The position numbers and the translations under genes were made by a program. Shown one piece after another: positions 29,598 to 56,434 of a stretch of DNA of 64,000 bases (the first letter of the stretch is position 1; each line of letters begins with the position of its first letter). The stretch comes from Escherichia phage HildyBeyeler: sequence record MZ501074. The stretch is one strand, 5' to 3'. A model generated the notes under the pieces. The model did not search any database and had not been told where the DNA came from. It saw only the letters and a program-made list of their open reading frames with translations.

Positions 29598-29603
29598 CTC
29601 AAA

Positions 29604-29630
29604 TAGCCCTTCGGGGCTATTATATTTAAA
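29604..29630 (+). terminator. intrinsic terminator after thyA
   Basis: TAGCCC-TTCG-GGGCTA hairpin followed by a T-rich tract. Confidence 0.65.
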
Positions 29631-29636
29631 TTTCAT

Positions 29637-29665
29637 TTGCTTATTTAGTGAAATTTAAATATAAT
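29637..29665 (+). promoter_or_regulatory. sigma70 promoter (TTGCTT, 17 bp, TATAAT)
   Basis: Follows the thyA terminator. Confidence 0.65.
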
Positions 29666-29690
29666 ATATTTTATAAATTGGAGGTATATA

Positions 29691-30448: not shown

Positions 30449-30469
30449 TAAGTAAATTAAAAATTCAAT

Positions 30470-30498
30470 TGCTTAAAGCCCTCTAATTTAGTATAATA
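30470..30498 (+). promoter_or_regulatory. sigma70 promoter (TTGCTT, 17 bp, TATAAT)
   Basis: Consensus hexamers with A-tract upstream. Confidence 0.65.
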
Positions 30499-30524
30499 TT
30501 CGTATTGAAAGTGAGGAGGGCTTT

Positions 30525-36540: not shown

Positions 36541-37041
36541 AGAACTGGATAACTGGTGCTTTTAACGTAAAAGCTTCCGAGGTTAGTTGCGCACTGCCTA
36601 AACCACGCGGTAGTTGGTTCCAGACTAACCAACCAGTCTGCTGAATAGTTTTATTACGATTTAACTATGTCCAGGCTAAAGAAGAACTTTAGAAGGTATT
36701 CTAGGTGGTGAAGTTTTTCCTCCATATCGGAGTAGTTTTTCAAGCTACCAACAAAGTGGGAAATGCTGACATGAGAGATGTCACTAATGGTGCACAATAG
36801 CACAGGTAATTCGCGATAACTCCTGTTGAGTAGCAGCAAAAGGCGGGAAGTCATGACCCCAAGCCTAACCGAGTCCTCAATATACCGCAGGACATAACCA
36901 CTAAGTCACCCTGACTTAAACTGGAAAATAATAGACGTTACTGTATTTTGTCTTGAAATACTTAATGAGTGAGACTTATGACTCTCCCGGTATCGTCTGT
37001 ATTTTTAAGAGTTTTTACGAGAGTTCTTAAAAATACTTAAA

Positions 37042-39019: not shown

Positions 39020-39097
39020 GGTTCTCAAGCTCATATGGTATGAGCACCCAGCTCATAACTGGAAGGTACGTAGGTTCGAATCCTCGGGGAGCCACCA
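39020..39097 (+). tRNA. tRNA-Met or Ile2 (anticodon CAU), CCA encoded
   Basis: Acceptor GGTTCTC/GGGAGCC with G-U pairs, D-stem GCTC/GAGC, anticodon loop CU-CAU-AA, TTCGAAT T-loop; T-stem imperfect. Confidence 0.6.
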
Positions 39098-39314: not shown

Positions 39315-39500
39315 ATGTCTAAGTTTCAAGAACTCAAGCAAGAGCTAGAAGAATGTGCCTGCCCTGAGTGTAGAGGAATTGGTGAAAGTTCTGATGCAGA
39401 AGCAGTGGATACTTTTTGCAATATCTGGGTTTGCCCAAATTGCAAGGGTACAGGTATTAATCCTAACTGTGGTATTTCTCTAGATATTGAAAGAGGATAA
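39315..39500 (+). CDS. small zinc-ribbon protein (61 aa)
   Basis: Two CxxC pairs (CACPEC, CPNCKG); AAGGAG RBS. Confidence 0.5.
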   Translation: MSKFQELKQELEECACPECRGIGESSDAEAVDTFCNIWVCPNCKGTGINPNCGISLDIERG

Positions 39501-40090: not shown

Positions 40091-40120
40091 TTGCCTTTTG
40101 CTTTAAATTTCTGGTATAAT
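40091..40120 (+). promoter_or_regulatory. sigma70 promoter (TTGCCT, 18 bp, TATAAT)
   Basis: Hexamers plus AGTTATATAAATTGATGAAGGAG box. Confidence 0.6.
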
Positions 40121-40150: not shown

Positions 40151-40426
40151 ATGCAAAATCGTGTTATAGCAACTGGTATTGAAAGTGCAATCTGTAAATC
40201 CTGGGAAGGCTGGGAAGGTGAGATTGAATGGCTTTATTTCTACGATGTAGAACTTCTGCCGGAAATTAAAGCTAAATGTGTTGAAGCTGGCATGGCTCCA
40301 GATGCAAAAGCTGATATTGATATTTCAATGTCTGAACTTAAAGGTCGTGTAGTTACCGTTAGTAATGAGGGCGAAGAAGTTTTTGAACTTCCGTTCTCCT
40401 TAGCTGTCACTCCTAAGTTCGACTAA
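40151..40426 (+). CDS. hypothetical protein (91 aa)
   Basis: Promoter 40091-40120 and GAAGGAG RBS. Confidence 0.5.
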   Translation: MQNRVIATGIESAICKSWEGWEGEIEWLYFYDVELLPEIKAKCVEAGMAPDAKADIDISMSELKGRVVTVSNEGEEVFELPFSLAVTPKFD

Positions 40427-40434
40427 CTAATACA

Positions 40435-40473
40435 GCACTGAGCAAGTCCTTTAAAATTTGACTTGCTCAGTGC
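40435..40473 (+). repeat. perfect 14-bp inverted repeat (GCACTGAGCAAGTC / GACTTGCTCAGTGC) with an 11-nt spacer
   Basis: Arms at 40435-48 and 40460-73 are exact reverse complements; the 3' arm contains the -35 of promoter 40463-91. Confidence 0.8.
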
Positions 40474-40491
40474 CTTAAAACTTGGTATAAT
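40463..40491 (+). promoter_or_regulatory. sigma70 promoter (TTGCTC, 17 bp, TATAAT); -35 lies in the 3' arm of a 14-bp palindrome
   Basis: Hexamers at 40463-68 and 40486-91. Confidence 0.6.
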
Positions 40492-40625
40492 AGTTATCTA
40501 ATTTGGAAAGTTCTTTTTAAGGTAGTTCTTACTTTAGCAGAGTAAACTTTCGGCAGATGGTGGCAGCCACTTTACCGATATTCCATAGTCAGTGCCGCAA
40601 ACACTGGCTACCTTAAAGAGAATTT

Positions 40626-40713
40626 GGGCGTTTATTCCGTAAGTGGTAGCGGAGGGGATTGTAAATCCCTGGTCATTGCGACTCGAGTGGTTCGACTCCA
40701 TTAACGCCCACCA
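40626..40713 (+). tRNA. tRNA-Tyr (anticodon GUA), long variable arm, CCA encoded
   Basis: Acceptor GGGCGTT/AACGCCC, anticodon arm GGGGA-UUGUAAA-TCCCT, extra arm, TTCGACT T-loop. Confidence 0.65.
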
Positions 40714-40721
40714 AATTTAAT

Positions 40722-40796
40722 GCACCTATCGTCTAATGGCTAGGACATCAGGATTTCAATCTGAGAATCGGAGTTCAATTCTCCGTGGGTGTACCA
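40722..40796 (+). tRNA. tRNA-Glu (anticodon UUC), CCA encoded
   Basis: Acceptor GCACCTA/TGGGTGT, anticodon arm TCAGG-AUUUCAA-TCTGA, T-arm CGGAG-TTCAATT-CTCCG. Confidence 0.7.
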
Positions 40797-40804
40797 ATTT
40801 CTGC

Positions 40805-40881
40805 ATTCCTAGAGTGTTACTGGACAGCATGTCGGTCTCCAAAACCGTACGGTCTAGGTTCGAGTCCTAGTAGGTTTGCCA
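40805..40881 (+). tRNA. probable tRNA-Trp (anticodon CCA), CCA encoded; 5' boundary uncertain
   Basis: Anticodon arm TCGGT-CUCCAAA-ACCGT, T-arm CTAGG-TTCGAGT-CCTAG, 3' G-CCA; acceptor has U-U mismatches. Confidence 0.5.
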
Positions 40882-40887
40882 AAATTT

Positions 40888-40962
40888 GCACCTTTAGCTG
40901 AGATGGATTAGCGCTTGCCTGAAGAGCTTGAGAGGTTGGATCGTTACCAACGGGGTGCACCA
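40888..40962 (+). tRNA. possible tRNA-Phe (anticodon GAA), CCA encoded; non-canonical T-loop
   Basis: Acceptor GCACCTT/GGGGTGC and D-stem GCTG/TAGC are clean; anticodon stem has two U-U mismatches; T-loop AUCGUUA. Confidence 0.4.
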
Positions 40963-42640: not shown

Positions 42641-42762
42641 CAAAATCTCAGTGCAGAACACGGAGCTAGCAATTCGGAAATGCTGACTCATGATAAGCTG
42701 CCTATGTACTTGCGAAGCGGTCGTGTCCAAGACTCGGACTCTTGCACTGAAAACAATCAAAC

Positions 42763-42883
42763 ATTCTAGCGTGGTTGATGGGGAAACCAGCTTGGCTAGG
42801 GCAGAAGCTCGTTCGATTCGAGTGAAAGAATGGTTCTCGTAAGTCCGCACAAGTGATAACAGGTTCGAGTCCTGTCTAGAATG
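42763..42883 (+). ncRNA. candidate structured RNA (121 nt) with tRNA-like termini
   Basis: ATTCTAG at 42763-69 pairs perfectly with CTAGAAT at 42876-82; T-arm-like ACAGG-TTCGAGT-CCTGT before the 3' strand; internal GCTCG-TTCGATT-CGAGT hairpin. Confidence 0.35.
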
Positions 42884-42897
42884 ACACTATAAAGTTT

Positions 42898-43012
42898 ACT
42901 TATTATGTAGGTTCCGATAGACCGGCGGGTCTATTCTGGCATTTAAGAGAGGTCTCGCAAACTTCTTTGTCAGCCGTGGGGTTGATAGCCCCCAGGTGGC
43001 CTACACAATAAG
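42898..43012 (+). repeat. 14-bp inverted repeat (13 of 14 pairs) enclosing about 87 nt of hairpin-rich sequence
   Basis: ACTTATTATGTAGG at 42898-911 pairs with CCTACACAATAAGT at 42999-43012; internal hairpins ATAGACC/GGTCTAT and GGGG/CCCC. Confidence 0.65.
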
Positions 43013-43032
43013 TAAATTTATGAAAAATGTAG

Positions 43033-43061
43033 TTGCTATTTAGCTTAATTCTCTGTATAAT
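43033..43061 (+). promoter_or_regulatory. sigma70 promoter (TTGCTA, 17 bp, TATAAT)
   Basis: Precedes HNH gene 43094-43669. Confidence 0.65.
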
Positions 43062-43093
43062 ATATTCTATAAAGTGAAGAGAAGGAAAGCAAA

Positions 43094-43669
43094 ATGGAAG
43101 GATTTAAACCAATACCCGAGTATCCAGAATACTTAGTATCTGAGAAGGGAGAAATATACTCCACTATCAGTAATAAATATTTAAAACCTACCATAAACGG
43201 GAGCGGCTATTACCACTTTGCAGTACGTGAAGATACTAATGAGTATAGATGGCTTCTGCTGCACAGAGTTATATGCAGGGTTTATGGTAATCTCCCCTCT
43301 TTAGATAGTGAAATGGAAGTAGATCATAATGATTGTAATAGGCTTAATATACTCCCTAGTAATTTAGTTGCCAGAGAGAAGAAAGATCATTACGATAAAA
43401 CTACACTGGAGAGAGGAAAAACTATAGGGGGCACTAGATGTATAGTCTGTAATAAGAGGATACACTCTGGTCGAGAATACTGCATAAATTGCAGTCCAGT
43501 TAAACAGACTAAATCCCCAGAGATTACCGCAGAACAGATAGAATATTGGGTATCAAAGTATTCCTGGACTAGAGCTGCAAAAGAGTTAAATTTATCTGAT
43601 AATGGTCTACGAAAACGGTATACTAAATTAACAGGTAAATCCCCAAAAGAAATTAAAAAATCAGGGTAA
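43094..43669 (+). CDS. HNH homing endonuclease (191 aa)
   Basis: HNH motif EVDHNDCNRLNILPSNL and zinc-ribbon CIVCNKRIHSGREYCINC; last 8 nt overlap the 5' end of tRNA-Pro. Confidence 0.75.
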   Translation: MEGFKPIPEYPEYLVSEKGEIYSTISNKYLKPTINGSGYYHFAVREDTNEYRWLLLHRVICRVYGNLPSLDSEMEVDHNDCNRLNILPSNLVAREKKDHYDKTTLERGKTIGGTRCIVCNKRIHSGREYCINCSPVKQTKSPEITAEQIEYWVSKYSWTRAAKELNLSDNGLRKRYTKLTGKSPKEIKKSG

Positions 43670-43739
43670 GGGCGATAAGGTACGCCACCTCGTTTGGGGC
43701 GAGGAAATCTTTAGAGTTCGAATCTCTATACCCTGACCA
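43662..43739 (+). tRNA. tRNA-Pro (anticodon UGG), CCA encoded
   Basis: Acceptor CAGGGTA/TACCCTG, D-stem GGCG/CGCC, anticodon arm CCTCG-UUUGGGG-CGAGG, T-loop TTCGAAT. Confidence 0.75.
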
Positions 43740-43745
43740 AACAAT

Positions 43746-43821
43746 TGCGGGTGGGAGGCATAGAGTTCTTCTTAGTCTCATAAGCTAAGTAAGTCCAGGG
43801 CAGTACTGGAACCCGCTACCA
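43746..43821 (+). tRNA. tRNA with anticodon CAU (Met/fMet/Ile2-type), non-canonical T-loop, CCA encoded
   Basis: Anticodon arm TTAGT-CUCAUAA-GCTAA, T-arm TCCAG-GGCAGTA-CTGGA, acceptor 6 bp with a U1-U72 mismatch. Confidence 0.45.
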
Positions 43822-43839
43822 ATTTCAAGAAAAACGCAG

Positions 43840-43868
43840 TTGCTTAATGCTTAATTTCTTGTTATAAT
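43840..43868 (+). promoter_or_regulatory. sigma70 promoter (TTGCTT, 17 bp, TATAAT)
   Basis: Hexamers plus ATTTATATAAATTGATG box; followed by about 330 nt with no ORF. Confidence 0.65.
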
Positions 43869-44204
43869 ATTTATATAAATTGATGCGAAAATAGCTGCCT
43901 AGATACCAGGTGTATGACGTCTACACTAGCAGAGCTACCGAAAAAGAGATCCCCAGGATAAACGTCGTAGCAAAATTAGTCTGGTATCCATCAATTTAGT
44001 TCACTAAGGTATTAGCTCGACCTAGGACTGGCTGCCAAAAAGCACGATCCCTACGATTCGGGAGAAGTTCTAGATTAGTCCACTAGATTCAGCGGCAACT
44101 GAATAGTGTATTGGGTTTGCGAGATGACGCAGTTCCTTCCGCTCGAAGCGAAGGTGCTGTAGTTACGCCGAGCTAATAGCCTTAGTAAACTAGAAGGAAT
44201 ATCT

Positions 44205-44468
44205 ATGTTTGATCTGAAAGATATGGCTAAAAAGTTAATGTCGCAACGCTATCAACAAAGAACACTCCATAAACGAGTTTCCGATATGAAAAAACGTTGC
44301 AATAATGCTAAATATTATAATAGTCTTAATAAACTATCTGATGCAGATCTTGTTAAAACTGAAGCAATATATAATCACTTAGCAGTAGAGTATGATATAG
44401 TGAATAAAGATATTGCTAGGCTAGAAGCTCAGATTGTAGCAACTGTACTTGACATGTACAGGGAATAA
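44205..44468 (+). CDS. hypothetical protein (87 aa)
   Basis: GAAGGA RBS. Confidence 0.5.
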   Translation: MFDLKDMAKKLMSQRYQQRTLHKRVSDMKKRCNNAKYYNSLNKLSDADLVKTEAIYNHLAVEYDIVNKDIARLEAQIVATVLDMYRE

Positions 44469-44479
44469 ATAAAGAATTT

Positions 44480-44558
44480 GGGGGATGGGTCTGCTGGGAG
44501 TGGACACCTCGCTTGCACCGAGGACATCAGAACGATTCGAATTCGTTATCCTCCACCA
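44480..44558 (+). tRNA. tRNA-Ala (anticodon UGC), CCA encoded
   Basis: Acceptor GGGGGAT/ATCCTCC with G3-U70, anticodon arm CCTCG-CUUGCAC-CGAGG, T-loop TTCGAAT. Confidence 0.7.
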
Positions 44559-44563
44559 AATAC

Positions 44564-44640
44564 GCGTGATTGATGGAATTGGCATACATACCGTCCTTAG
44601 AAGTCGGGTTTTGAGGGTTCGAATCCCTTGTCACGCACCA
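44564..44640 (+). tRNA. tRNA with anticodon UAG (Leu-type) but short variable arm, CCA encoded
   Basis: Acceptor GCGTGAT/GTCACGC, anticodon loop CU-UAG-AA, T-arm GAGGG-TTCGAAT-CCCTT, A73. Confidence 0.55.
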
Positions 44641-44764
44641 AATTTGATGGTCAGAGTAAATTAAACCTACTATCTCGGTTGAGCTGTTTTAATGGGTTCG
44701 AATCCCAGCGAGGCGTAACTGCCTGGTGTGATAGAGGCATCATTCCACTAATATTGGAAAACTA

Positions 44765-44995
44765 ATGAAACGAAAATTAAAAAAATCTTATATAATTAAG
44801 ATAAATAAGCTAAGAAGTAGGGCAAAAGGATGGCCACTTCGGATATTAATTGCGGATAACCATATTAGATACCATGCGGAACAACGTCATTATAAACAGT
44901 GGGAGTCATACTGCCGCTCAAAAGCAGGTCGTTTAGATGGATCTTATGAGTTTCTATTTGGTAAGAAGCCTACTAGAGTAGCTTTAGGTAATTAA
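44765..44995 (+). CDS. hypothetical basic protein (76 aa)
   Basis: ORF track. Confidence 0.4.
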   Translation: MKRKLKKSYIIKINKLRSRAKGWPLRILIADNHIRYHAEQRHYKQWESYCRSKAGRLDGSYEFLFGKKPTRVALGN

Positions 44996-45000
44996 TACTT

Positions 45001-45091
45001 GGAAGAGCAAATCGAATTGGCGACGAAAACCGCTTGGAAAGTGGCTGACCGGTAAAACGGCTTGAGAGTTCAAATCTCTCCTCTTCCGCCA
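45001..45091 (+). tRNA. tRNA-Ser (anticodon GGA), long variable arm, CCA encoded
   Basis: Acceptor GGAAGAG/CTCTTCC, anticodon loop UU-GGA-AA, 18-nt extra arm, T-arm GAGAG-TTCAAAT-CTCTC, G73. Confidence 0.65.
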
Positions 45092-45103
45092 AACAATTTA
45101 TAT

Positions 45104-45198
45104 GGTAGGTCAATCCAACGGCTGGCGCTGGACTCCGACTTGAAATCGGTTGATCGTAGTGATACGGTGTAAGGGTTCGATCCCCTTACCTACCTCCA
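45104..45198 (+). tRNA. tRNA-Ser (anticodon UGA), long variable arm, CCA encoded
   Basis: Acceptor GGTAGGT/ACCTACC, anticodon arm CCGA-CUUGAAA-TCGG, long extra arm, T-arm AAGGG-TTCGATC-CCCTT. Confidence 0.6.
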
Positions 45199-45450
45199 AA
45201 TCTTGAAGTATGCCGGAATCGGTAGACGGGGCTGCCTAAAAGGTTTATAGGGAACATCCACTCCCTGCAACATACCTCATAAAGCGGCTGAGATAAATGG
45301 TCTATCTCGTGAAGGTTCAAGTCCTTCTGCTTCTTGATACATCTATGGCTCAAAGTGTAACGGTGCTATTTGATGCTCTTGGTAAGACTTCCCCGACATG
45401 CGTTCGGGAGTAAGCTGCTAAGACTAGAGTAGAAGAGTTTCTGAGAGCCG

Positions 45451-45568
45451 CCACAATTGAAAATTCGTACTCGTCTTGAGCTGCGTGCAATAGGAGATAA
45501 CTTGATTAGTATTCTAGAACATGCTAATTGAGGATGGTTTCGCTAACCCTGCGAGTTTTCAATTGTGG
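45451..45568 (+). repeat. 13-bp perfect inverted repeat (CCACAATTGAAAA / TTTTCAATTGTGG) enclosing about 92 nt
   Basis: Arms at 45451-63 and 45556-68; the 3' arm runs into the acceptor stem of tRNA-His. Confidence 0.75.
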
Positions 45569-47050: not shown

Positions 47051-47079
47051 TTGCTTTCCCTCTTATTTATTGTTATAAT
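47051..47079 (+). promoter_or_regulatory. sigma70 promoter (TTGCTT, 17 bp, TATAAT)
   Basis: Hexamers plus ATTTATATAAATTAATGAGAGGG box. Confidence 0.7.
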
Positions 47080-47109
47080 ATTTATATAAATTAATGAGAG
47101 GGAAACCAA

Positions 47110-48928: not shown

Positions 48929-48957
48929 TTGCTAAACCTCTCTTTTCTTGCTATAAT
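48929..48957 (+). promoter_or_regulatory. sigma70 promoter (TTGCTA, 17 bp, TATAAT)
   Basis: Hexamers plus ATTTATAAATTGATGAGAGAGG box. Confidence 0.7.
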
Positions 48958-48987
48958 ATATTTATAAATTGATGAGAGAGGTTTGAA

Positions 48988-53925: not shown

Positions 53926-53986
53926 CTAAAATTCTTCTTGACAACGACATAATTTTGTGCTCCAAGTGTAACGTTTAAAAACCAAT

Positions 53987-54015
53987 TGAAATTTTCCTCC
54001 AAAATTAGTATAATG
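53987..54015 (+). promoter_or_regulatory. sigma70 promoter (TTGAAA, 17 bp, TATAAT) for the lysis genes
   Basis: Follows terminator 53893-53925; precedes the holin start. Confidence 0.55.
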
Positions 54016-54039
54016 GTACTGGTTAGAGGAGGTTACAAA

Positions 54040-54696
54040 TTGGAAAAGTTCTTACAATTATTAACAGTACTGCTCCAAGAAGCGAAAGACCCAGCATCGC
54101 TTCTTAAACGTCTGCTAACTATCTTAGTTGCTGTCATTATTTTCTTATTTGTTAGTAATACTAGTGAGGTGATGTCATTCTTAAAGACTTTCTCCACGTC
54201 TGCGGTTCTACAGGATGTTCAAACTCAAAGGATAAGTAATTTTCCTAACGTAGCTAGAGAAAAGAGCATGGTGCTTTTTTCCCAAACGGGTGCGGATGCT
54301 GTTTTTGTAGTCAAGTATAAACCCGATGCCATTAATGATTATTCTAACATTATTGCATGGGAAAGCAATGCGCAATTAGATAGGGCTGACTTGGCTGATA
54401 AAGCGGTAAATAAGACGTCTGAGCTATATAGACGTCACTTAGACGGCTTTAACTACGCATCGGATTTAAGTGTAAAAGTAAATAAATACATGGGGTTAAA
54501 TATACCTGCGTTTAAGAACGTTACTTTTAATTACATATACACTTGTCCGTATTTCAATCTAAACAATATCTATGCTGGATATATTGGTATTGCTTGGAAA
54601 GATAATCCTGTAGATACAGCTGATTCTGAACAGTTCAAGGAATATTTAGCAAAGCTCTGTTCCCCACAACAGAGATCTTTAGGTAGGTCAATATGA
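54040..54696 (+). CDS. hol: putative holin (~218 aa), TTG start
   Basis: AGGAGG RBS 7 nt before the TTG; N-terminal TM segment; immediately upstream of and coupled to the endolysin gene. Confidence 0.5.
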   Translation: MEKFLQLLTVLLQEAKDPASLLKRLLTILVAVIIFLFVSNTSEVMSFLKTFSTSAVLQDVQTQRISNFPNVAREKSMVLFSQTGADAVFVVKYKPDAINDYSNIIAWESNAQLDRADLADKAVNKTSELYRRHLDGFNYASDLSVKVNKYMGLNIPAFKNVTFNYIYTCPYFNLNNIYAGYIGIAWKDNPVDTADSEQFKEYLAKLCSPQQRSLGRSI

Positions 54697-56370: not shown

Positions 56371-56403
56371 AAGCCTGATCTTAGCGGATCAGGCTTTTAT
56401 TTT
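56371..56403 (+). terminator. intrinsic terminator after the thioredoxin-fold gene
   Basis: AGCCTGATC-TTAGCG-GATCAGGCT hairpin followed by TTTATTTT. Confidence 0.7.
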
Positions 56404-56405
56404 AC

Positions 56406-56434
56406 TTGCTTTTTGCTAAAAATTTTGGTATAAT
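56406..56434 (+). promoter_or_regulatory. sigma70 promoter (TTGCTT, 17 bp, TATAAT)
   Basis: Follows terminator 56371-56403; downstream ACTTATATAAATTGATAAGAAGG box. Confidence 0.65.

What the first reader, a model, noticed from the sequence alone, without database searches (positions are those of the whole stretch)
40435..40473. A perfect 14-bp palindrome overlaps a promoter -35 element
GCACTGAGCAAGTC and GACTTGCTCAGTGC flank an 11-nt A/T spacer, and the right arm contains the -35 TTGCTC of promoter 40463-91. As DNA it is a candidate dimeric operator. As RNA it would form a stable hairpin at the 3' end of the 40151-40426 transcript, but with no U-tract.
Basis: seen in the sequence. Interest (0 to 1): 0.45.

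Follow-up and report, generated by a model that had tools for sequence, protein, structure and literature searches.

The report
Conserved hairpin fused to T5 promoter
The palindrome is real and conserved in T5-like phages, but it is most likely an ordinary RNA stem-loop ending a small upstream gene and sharing DNA with the known promoter P14a, not a repressor-binding site.

Summary
The window is a T5-like phage, 99.6% identical to Salmonella phage Tennessee, and the site lies in its tRNA region. About 0.006 such repeats are expected by chance per window. Its loop and right arm are the -43 A/T block, the -35 and the first spacer bases of a promoter annotated in T5 as P14a (T5P19). That promoter drives a tRNA-Tyr/Glu/Trp cluster.

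About 413 Tequintavirus and Epseptimavirus records carry the palindrome, and it is better conserved than the adjacent ORF. Three things preserve pairing: symmetric double substitutions at two pairs, a paired 1-bp insertion in phage S147, and a stable fold in all 25 variants (-13.5 to -26.5 kcal/mol). This points to selection for a hairpin. Fixed operator half-sites are unlikely: the genome holds no second half-site copy, and no DNA-binding gene lies nearby.

There is no U-tract, so it is not a canonical intrinsic terminator. My best reading is a PeSL-like composite junction, as described in T4-like phages. The stem-loop forms only in read-through RNA from the upstream promoter. It would attenuate or stabilise that RNA's 3' end. 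This function is inferred and was not tested. A DNA-level role cannot be excluded.

The parts
40091..40120 (+). Upstream promoter (TTGCCT-N18-TGGTATAAT), homologous to T5 P15c. It is the nearest source of read-through RNA that would contain the hairpin.
   Evidence: Promoter scan. T5 annotation 'promoter P15c' lies just upstream of T5.072.
40151..40426 (+). 91-aa ORF of unknown function (homologue of T5.072 / ORF068, phrog_4551). Its stop codon lies 8 nt before the left arm.
   Evidence: No Pfam match.
40435..40448 (+). Left arm of the palindrome (about -63 to -50 relative to the predicted start). This is the only part not explained by the promoter consensus.
   Evidence: It is 13/14 identical to Epseptimavirus, while the last 60 nt of the ORF are only 70% identical.
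40449..40459 (+). Loop CTTTAAAATTT, which is also the A/T-rich '-43 block' of the T5-type promoter.
   Evidence: Consensus TtAAAAaTTtA in 27 window promoters. An A/T block at -43 is described for T5-like promoters in PMC3326045.
40460..40473 (+). Right arm. It holds 3 nt upstream of the -35, the -35 TTGCTC (40463-40468), and the first 5 spacer bases AGTGC.
40463..40491 (+). Core promoter: -35 TTGCTC, 17-bp spacer, extended -10 TGG-TATAAT. It is homologous to T5 promoter P14a / T5P19. The annotated 75-bp P14a region maps to window 40445-40519. The predicted start near 40498 is inferred.
40508..40625 (+). Structured 118-nt leader RNA of the P14a transcript. It is closed by a 17-bp stem and directly abuts tRNA-Tyr. 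It differs from the leaders of T5 and other relatives, so a mosaic junction lies just after the promoter.
40626..40959 (+). tRNA cluster driven by the promoter: tRNA-Tyr, tRNA-Glu, tRNA-Trp, and a fourth tRNA detected only by Rfam.

Best explanation
The element is a composite gene-end/promoter junction in the tRNA region of a T5-like phage. On the DNA, the loop and right arm are the upstream half of the sigma-70 early promoter P14a: the A/T block, the -35, and the start of the spacer. That promoter transcribes a structured leader plus tRNA-Tyr, Glu and Trp. The left arm, 8 nt after the stop codon of the 91-aa ORF, has been kept complementary to this constrained promoter sequence. As a result, any RNA that starts upstream (at the P15c homologue or further back) and crosses the junction folds into a 14-bp, roughly -24 kcal/mol stem-loop at the end of the ORF. 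RNAs started at P14a itself do not contain the stem-loop. I infer that it attenuates or pauses read-through into the tRNA promoter, or blocks 3'-exonucleases once downstream tRNA processing has released the mRNA, or both. This is how the promoter-early stem-loop cassettes (PeSLs) of T4-like phages are proposed to work. What is shown: the palindrome, its identity with promoter P14a, its conservation, and the concerted arm changes. What is inferred: that the selected structure is RNA, and what it does.
For: 1) Identity. The window is 99.6% identical to phage Tennessee and is T5-like. The site maps to T5 promoter P14a/T5P19, directly after T5.072.
2) Promoter constraint. The loop and right arm match the consensus of 27 promoters in the window. 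Only the left arm is extra.
3) Conservation. 413-421 phage records carry the hairpin, the same number as carry the ORF at 60% identity or more. Against Epseptimavirus the hairpin is 95% identical, the ORF 81.5%, and the ORF's 3' end 70%.
4) Pairing preserved. The helix is 98.6% paired across 25 distinct sequences. Pairs 4-11' and 7-8' show changes on both sides (C-G to U-A, A-U to G-C), and slid controls show none. In phage S147 a T was inserted in the left arm and an A in the right arm, giving a perfect 15-bp stem. All 25 variants fold at -13.5 to -26.5 kcal/mol.
5) Position. It lies 8 nt after a stop codon in an array of same-strand genes.
6) Precedent. PeSL stem-loops in T4-like phages can overlap the -35. 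One of them lowered downstream lacZ expression as much as rrnB T1 (PMC2839356).
7) Mosaic junction. Three unrelated leaders follow the same promoter in different relatives, as PeSL-mediated shuffling would predict.
Against: No U-tract (T-tract score 1.0) and an 11-nt loop, so efficient intrinsic termination by E. coli RNA polymerase is unlikely. The strand test failed: single-sided changes that give G.U on the + strand (L007, L061, apical pair) are matched by changes that give G.U only on the - strand (L004, L062, L024). The data therefore do not prove that the selected structure is + strand RNA. The compensatory events are few, perhaps 2-3 independent ones. Template-switch mutation within a quasi-palindrome could also produce them without selection. 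Unlike PeSLs, the stem sequence is unique in the genome. The module is dispensable: it is deleted in T5 st0 and in locus L023. No transcript 3'-end data were found.
Confidence: 0.5

Rival explanations
1. Dimeric operator. A phage or host repressor dimer binds the two 14-bp half-sites on duplex DNA and occludes the -35 and UP region of P14a, controlling when the tRNA-Tyr operon is expressed.
For: A perfect dyad overlaps the -35. Its sequence is highly conserved across two genera. Sequence conservation higher than pairing alone needs could reflect base-specific contacts.
Against: No second copy of the half-site (up to 3 mismatches) or of its 11-mer core (exact; the only 1-mismatch matches are two isolated sites) in 110 kb. 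No HTH or other DNA-binding domain in the neighbouring ORFs. Arms change in concert, and S147 lengthened both half-sites by 1 bp. L007 and gmork carry asymmetric arms and are still recovered in sequence collections. The right arm's conservation is already explained by the promoter consensus. An 11-bp spacer with 14-bp half-sites, 25 bp centre to centre, is unusual for known repressors (my own knowledge).
Confidence: 0.12
2. DNA-level structure. On negatively supercoiled DNA, or on the non-template strand opened by upstream transcription, the palindrome extrudes as a cruciform or hairpin. This hides the -35, so P14a becomes sensitive to supercoiling or to read-through.
For: Perfect arms with an A/T-rich centre favour extrusion. 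Concerted arm changes and the paired insertion fit DNA pairing as well as RNA pairing. Both strands fold about equally well in most variants.
Against: A 14-bp arm with an 11-13-nt unpaired centre is a weak cruciform former at physiological superhelicity (my own knowledge). In L007 the - strand stem falls to -11.8 kcal/mol, against -19.6 for the + strand. In L004 the reverse holds. So one of the two hairpins of a cruciform is often impaired. T5 virion DNA is linear and nicked (PMC10644984). Its superhelical state inside the cell is not established here.
Confidence: 0.08
3. No function of its own. The palindrome is kept by mutation or recombination mechanics, for example quasi-palindrome template switching, or hitch-hiking with a promoter that acts as a recombination junction.
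For: The module is dispensable. A mosaic junction lies right after the promoter. Few independent compensatory events were seen, and no strand bias. In L024 the upstream ORF is deleted and the hairpin carries a mismatch.
Against: The left arm is 13/14 identical between genera whose adjacent coding DNA is only 70-81% identical. Every one of 25 variants keeps a stable stem. About 0.006 such palindromes are expected by chance. It is the only one of 27 promoters in the window with such an arm.
Confidence: 0.15
4. RNase III processing site, as in the T7 early region. The 14-bp stem plus a weaker outer helix (40424-40433 pairing with 40485-40496) is cut, separating the ORF mRNA from the tRNA precursor.
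For: The minimum-free-energy fold adds a 10-12-bp outer helix across an asymmetric internal loop, which resembles T7 R1.1-type sites. The outer helix is 93.7% paired in relatives.
Against: The outer helix is A/T-rich and is built from the stop-codon region and the -10 consensus. The junction pair is mismatched in 10 of 25 sequences, and only one pair covaries. I know of no RNase III dependence reported for T5.
Confidence: 0.1

Closest known systems
PeSL (promoter-early stem-loop) cassettes of T4-like phages (Arbiol, Comeau and Krisch 2010, PMC2839356; Comeau et al. 2014, PMC4122927)
   Same: A strong sigma-70 early promoter with an A/T-rich upstream block is fused to a stable stem-loop placed between small non-essential ORFs. 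One described subclass has the stem-loop overlapping the -35. The stem-loop is read as a terminator or attenuator for upstream transcription. The cassette marks points of modular exchange. Here, three different leaders follow the same promoter.
   Different: The host phage is a T5-like siphovirus (Demerecviridae), not a T4-like myovirus. The stem sequence is single-copy, not a repeated motif. The stem encloses the A/T block as an 11-nt loop, and it is not a poly-G/poly-C stem. Terminator activity has not been tested.
T5 early promoter P14a (AY543070), also annotated as putative early promoter T5P19 (AY587007)
   Same: Same locus: the 53-nt core is 96% identical. It has the same neighbours, T5.072 upstream and tRNA-Tyr downstream.
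   Different: The GenBank records annotate only a promoter. Neither the dyad symmetry nor a terminator is annotated there. The window has C, not T, at arm position 14, which makes the palindrome perfect. It also has a different leader after the promoter.
Canonical terminator-promoter junctions of the same phage (for example 56371-56434, and 20685 and 11419 on the - strand)
   Same: A gene-end hairpin sits immediately upstream of a TTGCTt-N17-TATAAT promoter, and the two share sequence.
   Different: In those junctions the hairpin lies wholly upstream, and its T-tract doubles as the promoter's A/T block. In this element the A/T block is the loop, the -35 is inside the stem, and no T-tract follows.
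3' stabiliser hairpins such as REP elements, and the T7 RNase III-generated 3' hairpins
   Same: A stable stem-loop without a U-tract sits downstream of a coding region and could block 3'-to-5' exonucleases (established knowledge, not tested here).
   Different: No sequence relationship. It is single-copy and overlaps a promoter.

Membership tests
T5-type sigma-70 early promoter (P14a) | -35 TTGCTt, 17-bp spacer, TATAAT, A/T block near -43 | tested here: met
   TTGCTC-N17-TATAAT with TG extension and TTTAAAATTT at about -48 to -39. It fits the consensus of 27 window promoters and the published T5-like consensus (PMC3326045).
T5-type sigma-70 early promoter (P14a) | Orthology to the annotated T5 promoter | tested here: met
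   Maps onto AY543070 'promoter P14a' and AY587007 'T5P19'.
T5-type sigma-70 early promoter (P14a) | Demonstrated initiation at this site | not testable with these tools
   Database annotation only. No transcript-mapping paper was found.
PeSL composite promoter/stem-loop cassette | Early sigma-70 promoter with an A/T-rich upstream region plus an adjacent or overlapping stable stem-loop | tested here: met
   Definition taken from PMC2839356.
PeSL composite promoter/stem-loop cassette | Located between small non-essential ORFs in a plastic region | tested here: met
   Flanked by small ORFs of unknown function and by tRNAs. The region is deleted in T5 st0 and in L023.
PeSL composite promoter/stem-loop cassette | Repeated, sequence-similar copies that serve as recombination sites | tested here: inconclusive
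   The promoter half is repeated at least 27 times, and a mosaic junction lies just downstream. The stem is unique in the genome.
PeSL composite promoter/stem-loop cassette | Stem-loop terminates or attenuates upstream transcription | not testable with these tools
   Needs a reporter assay or Term-seq.
PeSL composite promoter/stem-loop cassette | Found in T4-like myoviruses | tested here: not met
   The window is Demerecviridae, T5-like. I therefore treat this as 'works like' a PeSL, not as a member of the family.
Intrinsic (Rho-independent) terminator | G+C-rich stem | tested here: met
   14 bp, 8 of them G-C, -24.7 kcal/mol.
Intrinsic (Rho-independent) terminator | Short loop (3-8 nt) | tested here: not met
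   11-nt loop. Not reported by the terminator scan.
Intrinsic (Rho-independent) terminator | U-tract directly after the stem | tested here: not met
   CUUAAAACUUGG. T-tract score 1.0, against 2.0-3.1 for the five U-tract-bearing hairpins of the window that I scored. No variant in relatives has a U-tract.
Dimeric repressor operator | Inverted-repeat half-sites overlapping promoter elements | tested here: met
Dimeric repressor operator | Further sites in the genome, or a cognate regulator gene nearby | tested here: not met
   No other half-site in 110 kb. No DNA-binding domain in 9 neighbouring ORFs.
Dimeric repressor operator | Half-site sequence and geometry conserved irrespective of pairing | tested here: not met
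   Symmetric double substitutions, and a paired 1-bp insertion in S147.
Dimeric repressor operator | Protein binding | not testable with these tools
   EMSA or footprinting required.
RNase III site (T7 early type) | About two turns of dsRNA, or two stacked helices around an internal loop, conserved in relatives | tested here: inconclusive
   A 14-bp stem plus an outer helix that is 93.7% paired, but whose junction pair is broken in 10 of 25 sequences.
Any Rfam family | Covariance-model match | tested here: not met
   No hit at 40420-40625 at E <= 1. Only the flanking tRNAs matched.

The most novel reading that the evidence does not exclude
The palindrome acts on DNA as a natural structure-gated promoter. 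Extrusion of a cruciform, or a hairpin formed in the strand opened by polymerases arriving from P15c, would sequester the -35 and A/T block of P14a. Output of the tRNA-Tyr operon would then be coupled to supercoiling or to upstream transcription. T5 tRNA-Tyr is reported as a counter-defence against retron Eco7 (PMC10644984).
Probability: 0.07. Interest if true: 0.6.

Novelty: new member of a known kind. Interest (0 to 1): 0.3.

Why it matters
If the main reading holds, composite stem-loop/promoter junctions, so far described for T4-like phages, also organise the plastic tRNA/ORFan region of T5-like phages. It would also be a clean example of one DNA segment serving two roles: the promoter upstream half on DNA and a gene-end hairpin on RNA. 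Practically, T5 annotations should mark the dyad at P14a. The promoter drives tRNA-Tyr, which has been implicated in escape from a retron defence, so anything that modulates read-through or promoter output here could affect counter-defence. None of this changes current understanding much. It is a modest refinement of a well-studied phage.

Tried and rejected
1) Half-site search. I searched the window and the rest of the Tennessee genome with up to 3 mismatches and found no further copies. This weighs against a regulon-type operator.
2) Strand-asymmetry test. If the structure were + strand RNA, single-sided changes should give G.U on the + strand. I found about as many changes compatible only with the - strand, so the test does not discriminate. 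I withdrew my earlier impression that wobble pairs prove an RNA.
3) Extended outer helix (stop-codon region pairing with the -10 region). The covariation support is weak, so I did not adopt it.
4) Intrinsic terminator. Rejected on loop size and the absent U-tract. The d'Aubenton-Carafa-type discriminant, computed with modern folding energies, is not calibrated, so I used it only for comparison within the window.
5) Rfam scan at E <= 1. Nothing at the site.
6) Pfam and PHROGs searches of nine neighbouring ORFs for a regulator. None found. The 'anti-termination protein Q-like' label on the 61-aa zinc-ribbon ORF (39315-39500) rests only on a PHROG name and on Pfam hits below threshold.
7) Distant relatives. 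Klebsiella Sugarlandvirus has the ORF but no promoter or hairpin after it. Vibrio phage Bennett has a T5-type promoter after the ORF but no palindrome.
8) Metagenome and viral-contig pattern scans. They added only a few new variants.
9) Literature searches for T5 transcript 3'-end maps or a description of P14a. Nothing usable was found.
10) Recalled consensus sites for LexA and CRP. No resemblance, but this was checked from memory only and not with a tool.

Full report
**What the window is.** A 3-kb stretch around the finding is 99.6% identical to Salmonella phage Tennessee. It is 90-95% identical to hundreds of T5-like phages of Salmonella and Escherichia. The window carries 21 tRNA genes between 36.4 and 47.7 kb. 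This is the tRNA/small-ORF region of a T5-like phage (Demerecviridae, Markadamsvirinae).

**Observation.** GCACTGAGCAAGTC (40435-40448) and GACTTGCTCAGTGC (40460-40473) are perfect reverse complements around CTTTAAAATTT.
- From base composition, 0.006 perfect inverted repeats of at least 14 bp (loops 3-15 nt) are expected in 64 kb. Ten shuffles gave longest repeats of 9-12 bp.
- As RNA the stem-loop has -24.7 kcal/mol. That is the most stable local hairpin between 28 and 50 kb, with z = -6.4 against shuffles.
- It starts 8 nt after the stop codon of the 91-aa ORF 40151-40426.
- It is followed by CTTAAAACTTGG, so there is no U-tract.

**The promoter is real and already known.** The right arm contains TTGCTC (40463-40468). 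A 17-bp spacer follows, then TGG-TATAAT.
- The generic scan missed it because TTGCTC matches TTGACA at only 3 of 6 positions.
- Aligning the 27 TTGCnn-N17-TATAAT promoters of the window gives the phage's own consensus, TtAAAAaTTtA.TTGCTt a..gc... TATAATAT.TtTATAAATT. This promoter fits it. The consensus agrees with the published one for T5-like phages: TTGCTw, TATAATA, and an A/T block at -43 (PMC3326045).
- In phage T5 the homologous sequence is annotated 'promoter P14a' (AY543070) and 'putative early promoter T5P19' (AY587007). It lies directly after T5.072/ORF068 and before tRNA-Tyr.
- The alignment shows that the hairpin loop is the promoter's A/T block. The right arm is the -35 plus the usual first spacer bases.
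- Only the left arm is additional. None of the other 26 promoters has such an arm.

**Conservation.**
- The ORF is found by tblastn in 532 phage records. Of these, 413 have at least 60% identity.
- The 53-nt hairpin core is found in 421 records, and 413 of them cover at least 80% of it. Essentially all Tequintavirus and Epseptimavirus genomes therefore carry it.
- Against Epseptimavirus Stitch the ORF DNA is 81.5% identical, and its last 60 nt are 70% identical. The hairpin is 95% identical, and the left arm matches at 13 of 14 positions.
- More distant Demerecviridae behave differently. Klebsiella Sugarlandvirus has the ORF followed directly by another ORF. Vibrio phage Bennett has a T5-type promoter after the ORF but no palindrome. 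The promoter type therefore does not need the palindrome.

**How the arms vary.**
- In 25 distinct sequences the 14-bp helix is 98.6% paired.
- Pairs 4-11' (C-G to U-A) and 7-8' (A-U to G-C) change on both sides in the L004/L061 lineage. L007 carries only the left-arm changes, which gives G.U pairs. Slid-partner controls give no double changes at five of the six offsets and a single one at +2.
- Further GenBank relatives gave the most telling case. Salmonella phage S147 has an extra T in the left arm and an extra A at the mirror position of the right arm, giving a perfect 15-bp stem. Phage gmork has only the left insertion, which produces a bulge.
- The outermost and loop-proximal pairs fray in several lineages.
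- All 25 hairpin variants still fold at -13.5 to -26.5 kcal/mol.

This pattern preserves pairing, not a fixed recognition sequence. There are two caveats. The number of independent events is small. Template-switch mutation within quasi-palindromes can also create concerted changes without selection.

**RNA or DNA?** I tested whether single-sided changes favour G.U on the + strand. They do not clearly do so. L007, L061 and the apical pair fit the + strand. L004, L062 and L024 fit the - strand. The RNA assignment therefore rests on context:
- all genes here are on the + strand;
- the stem begins 8 nt after a stop codon;
- a promoter homologous to T5 P15c lies 344 nt upstream (40091-40120).

**Against an operator.**
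- No other half-site, with up to 3 mismatches, exists in the window or in the remaining 46 kb of the Tennessee genome. The 11-mer core has no second exact copy either; its only 1-mismatch matches are two isolated sites.
- None of nine neighbouring ORFs has a DNA-binding domain.
- The symmetric substitutions and the paired insertion are not what a fixed protein-DNA interface predicts.
- The high sequence conservation has a simpler cause. The right arm is constrained as a promoter, and the left arm must complement it.

**Against a canonical terminator.**
- The loop is 11 nt, and the T-tract score is 1.0. The five U-tract-bearing (terminator-like) hairpins of the same window that I scored reach 2.0-3.1. 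No relative has a U-tract.
- Elsewhere the phage uses a different composite. There, a terminator hairpin's T-tract doubles as the next promoter's A/T block (56371-56434; 20685 and 11419 on the - strand; 51054).

**Closest known system.**
- PeSLs of T4-like phages are strong early promoters fused to stem-loops between small non-essential ORFs.
- The stem-loop may overlap the -35, and one PeSL stem-loop reduced downstream lacZ expression as much as rrnB T1.
- The cassettes also act as recombination points (PMC2839356; PMC4122927).
- The present element shares this architecture and setting. It also sits at a mosaic junction: identical promoter sequence is followed, about 12 nt past the predicted start, by three unrelated leaders in different relatives.
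- It differs in three ways. It is in a T5-like phage, its stem is single-copy, and the A/T block forms its loop. I therefore say it works like a PeSL, but I do not file it as a member.

**Mechanism proposed.** RNA polymerase starting at P15c (or further upstream) transcribes the 91-aa ORF and then the palindrome. The nascent RNA folds into the stem-loop while the polymerase is on the P14a spacer and -10. I consider three outcomes:
- partial attenuation or pausing, which would insulate the tRNA promoter;
- a barrier to 3' exonucleases once tRNA processing releases the mRNA;
- less likely, RNase III cleavage.

P14a-initiated RNAs lack the structure. All functional steps are inferred.

**Dispensability.**
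- The region is absent from T5 st0 and from locus L023.
- In L024 the ORF is deleted, but the hairpin and promoter remain, with one mismatch.

**Verdict.** The operator reading is not supported, and the gene-end hairpin reading is favoured. This is a conserved but ordinary regulatory junction at a known T5 promoter, of modest interest.

Noticed in passing
window 40508-40625 (+): The 118-nt leader between the promoter and tRNA-Tyr folds into a multi-armed RNA closed by a 17-bp stem (-40.5 kcal/mol, z = -3.7). T5 does not have it; T5 has an unrelated 107-nt leader that is also closed by a long stem. Copies 76-93% identical sit in the tRNA arrays of unrelated ~150-kb E. coli myoviruses (Phapecoctavirus, Justusliebigvirus; the search summary also names a Vequintavirinae record). 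There they are unannotated and lie next to tRNA-Lys/Tyr. The closing stem shows compensatory changes. There is no Rfam hit and no similarity to the annotated T5 small RNAs. It may be an undescribed phage RNA that moves horizontally together with tRNA-Tyr.
   Followed up: partly
window 30469-30523, 47051-47103, 48929-48981, 53986-54040 (+); 834-780 and 11419-11360 (-): In several T5-type promoters the spacer between the -35 and -10 carries an anti-Shine-Dalgarno sequence such as CCCTCT or CCTCTC. It pairs with the ribosome-binding site about 30 nt downstream. Read-through RNAs would therefore hide the ribosome-binding site, while RNAs started at the promoter itself would expose it. This resembles the T4 lysozyme-type arrangement.
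   Followed up: no
window 29603-29666 (+): A canonical terminator (ATAGCCCTTCGGGGCTAT) is followed at once by an 18-bp perfect A/T-rich palindrome. The loop of that palindrome holds the -35 TTGCTT, and its right arm holds the -10 TATAAT of the next promoter.
   Followed up: no
window 56371-56434 (+); 20685 and 11419 (-); 51054 (+): These are terminator-promoter composites in which the terminator's T-tract is the A/T block of the next promoter.
   Followed up: no
window 42762-45563 (+): Homologues of all six small RNAs annotated in T5 st0 (rna2, RNAIV, RNA2H, RNA1, RNAI, RNAIII) are present at 86-100% identity. Their function is unknown.
   Followed up: partly
window 39020-39094, 40888-40959, 45104-45194 (+): Rfam finds tRNA-like matches of 38, 33 and 38 bits that ARAGORN did not call. 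The first coincides with a tRNA-Met annotated in phage Tennessee.
   Followed up: no
window 36999-37036 (+): A 12-bp perfect A/T-rich hairpin ends 5 nt before tRNA-Arg.
   Followed up: no
window 39315-39500 (+): This 61-aa CxxC...CxxC zinc-ribbon ORF is widely annotated 'antitermination protein Q'. The only support is a PHROG name plus sub-threshold Pfam hits (Zn ribbon, DnaJ CXXCXGXG, Anti-TRAP). The label looks unfounded.
   Followed up: partly
L024 1960-2110; L023 2150-2250: Natural deletions in relatives. L024 lost most of the 91-aa ORF but kept the hairpin and promoter. L023 lost everything from mid-ORF to the DUF7337 gene, including the hairpin, the promoter and the tRNAs.
   Followed up: partly
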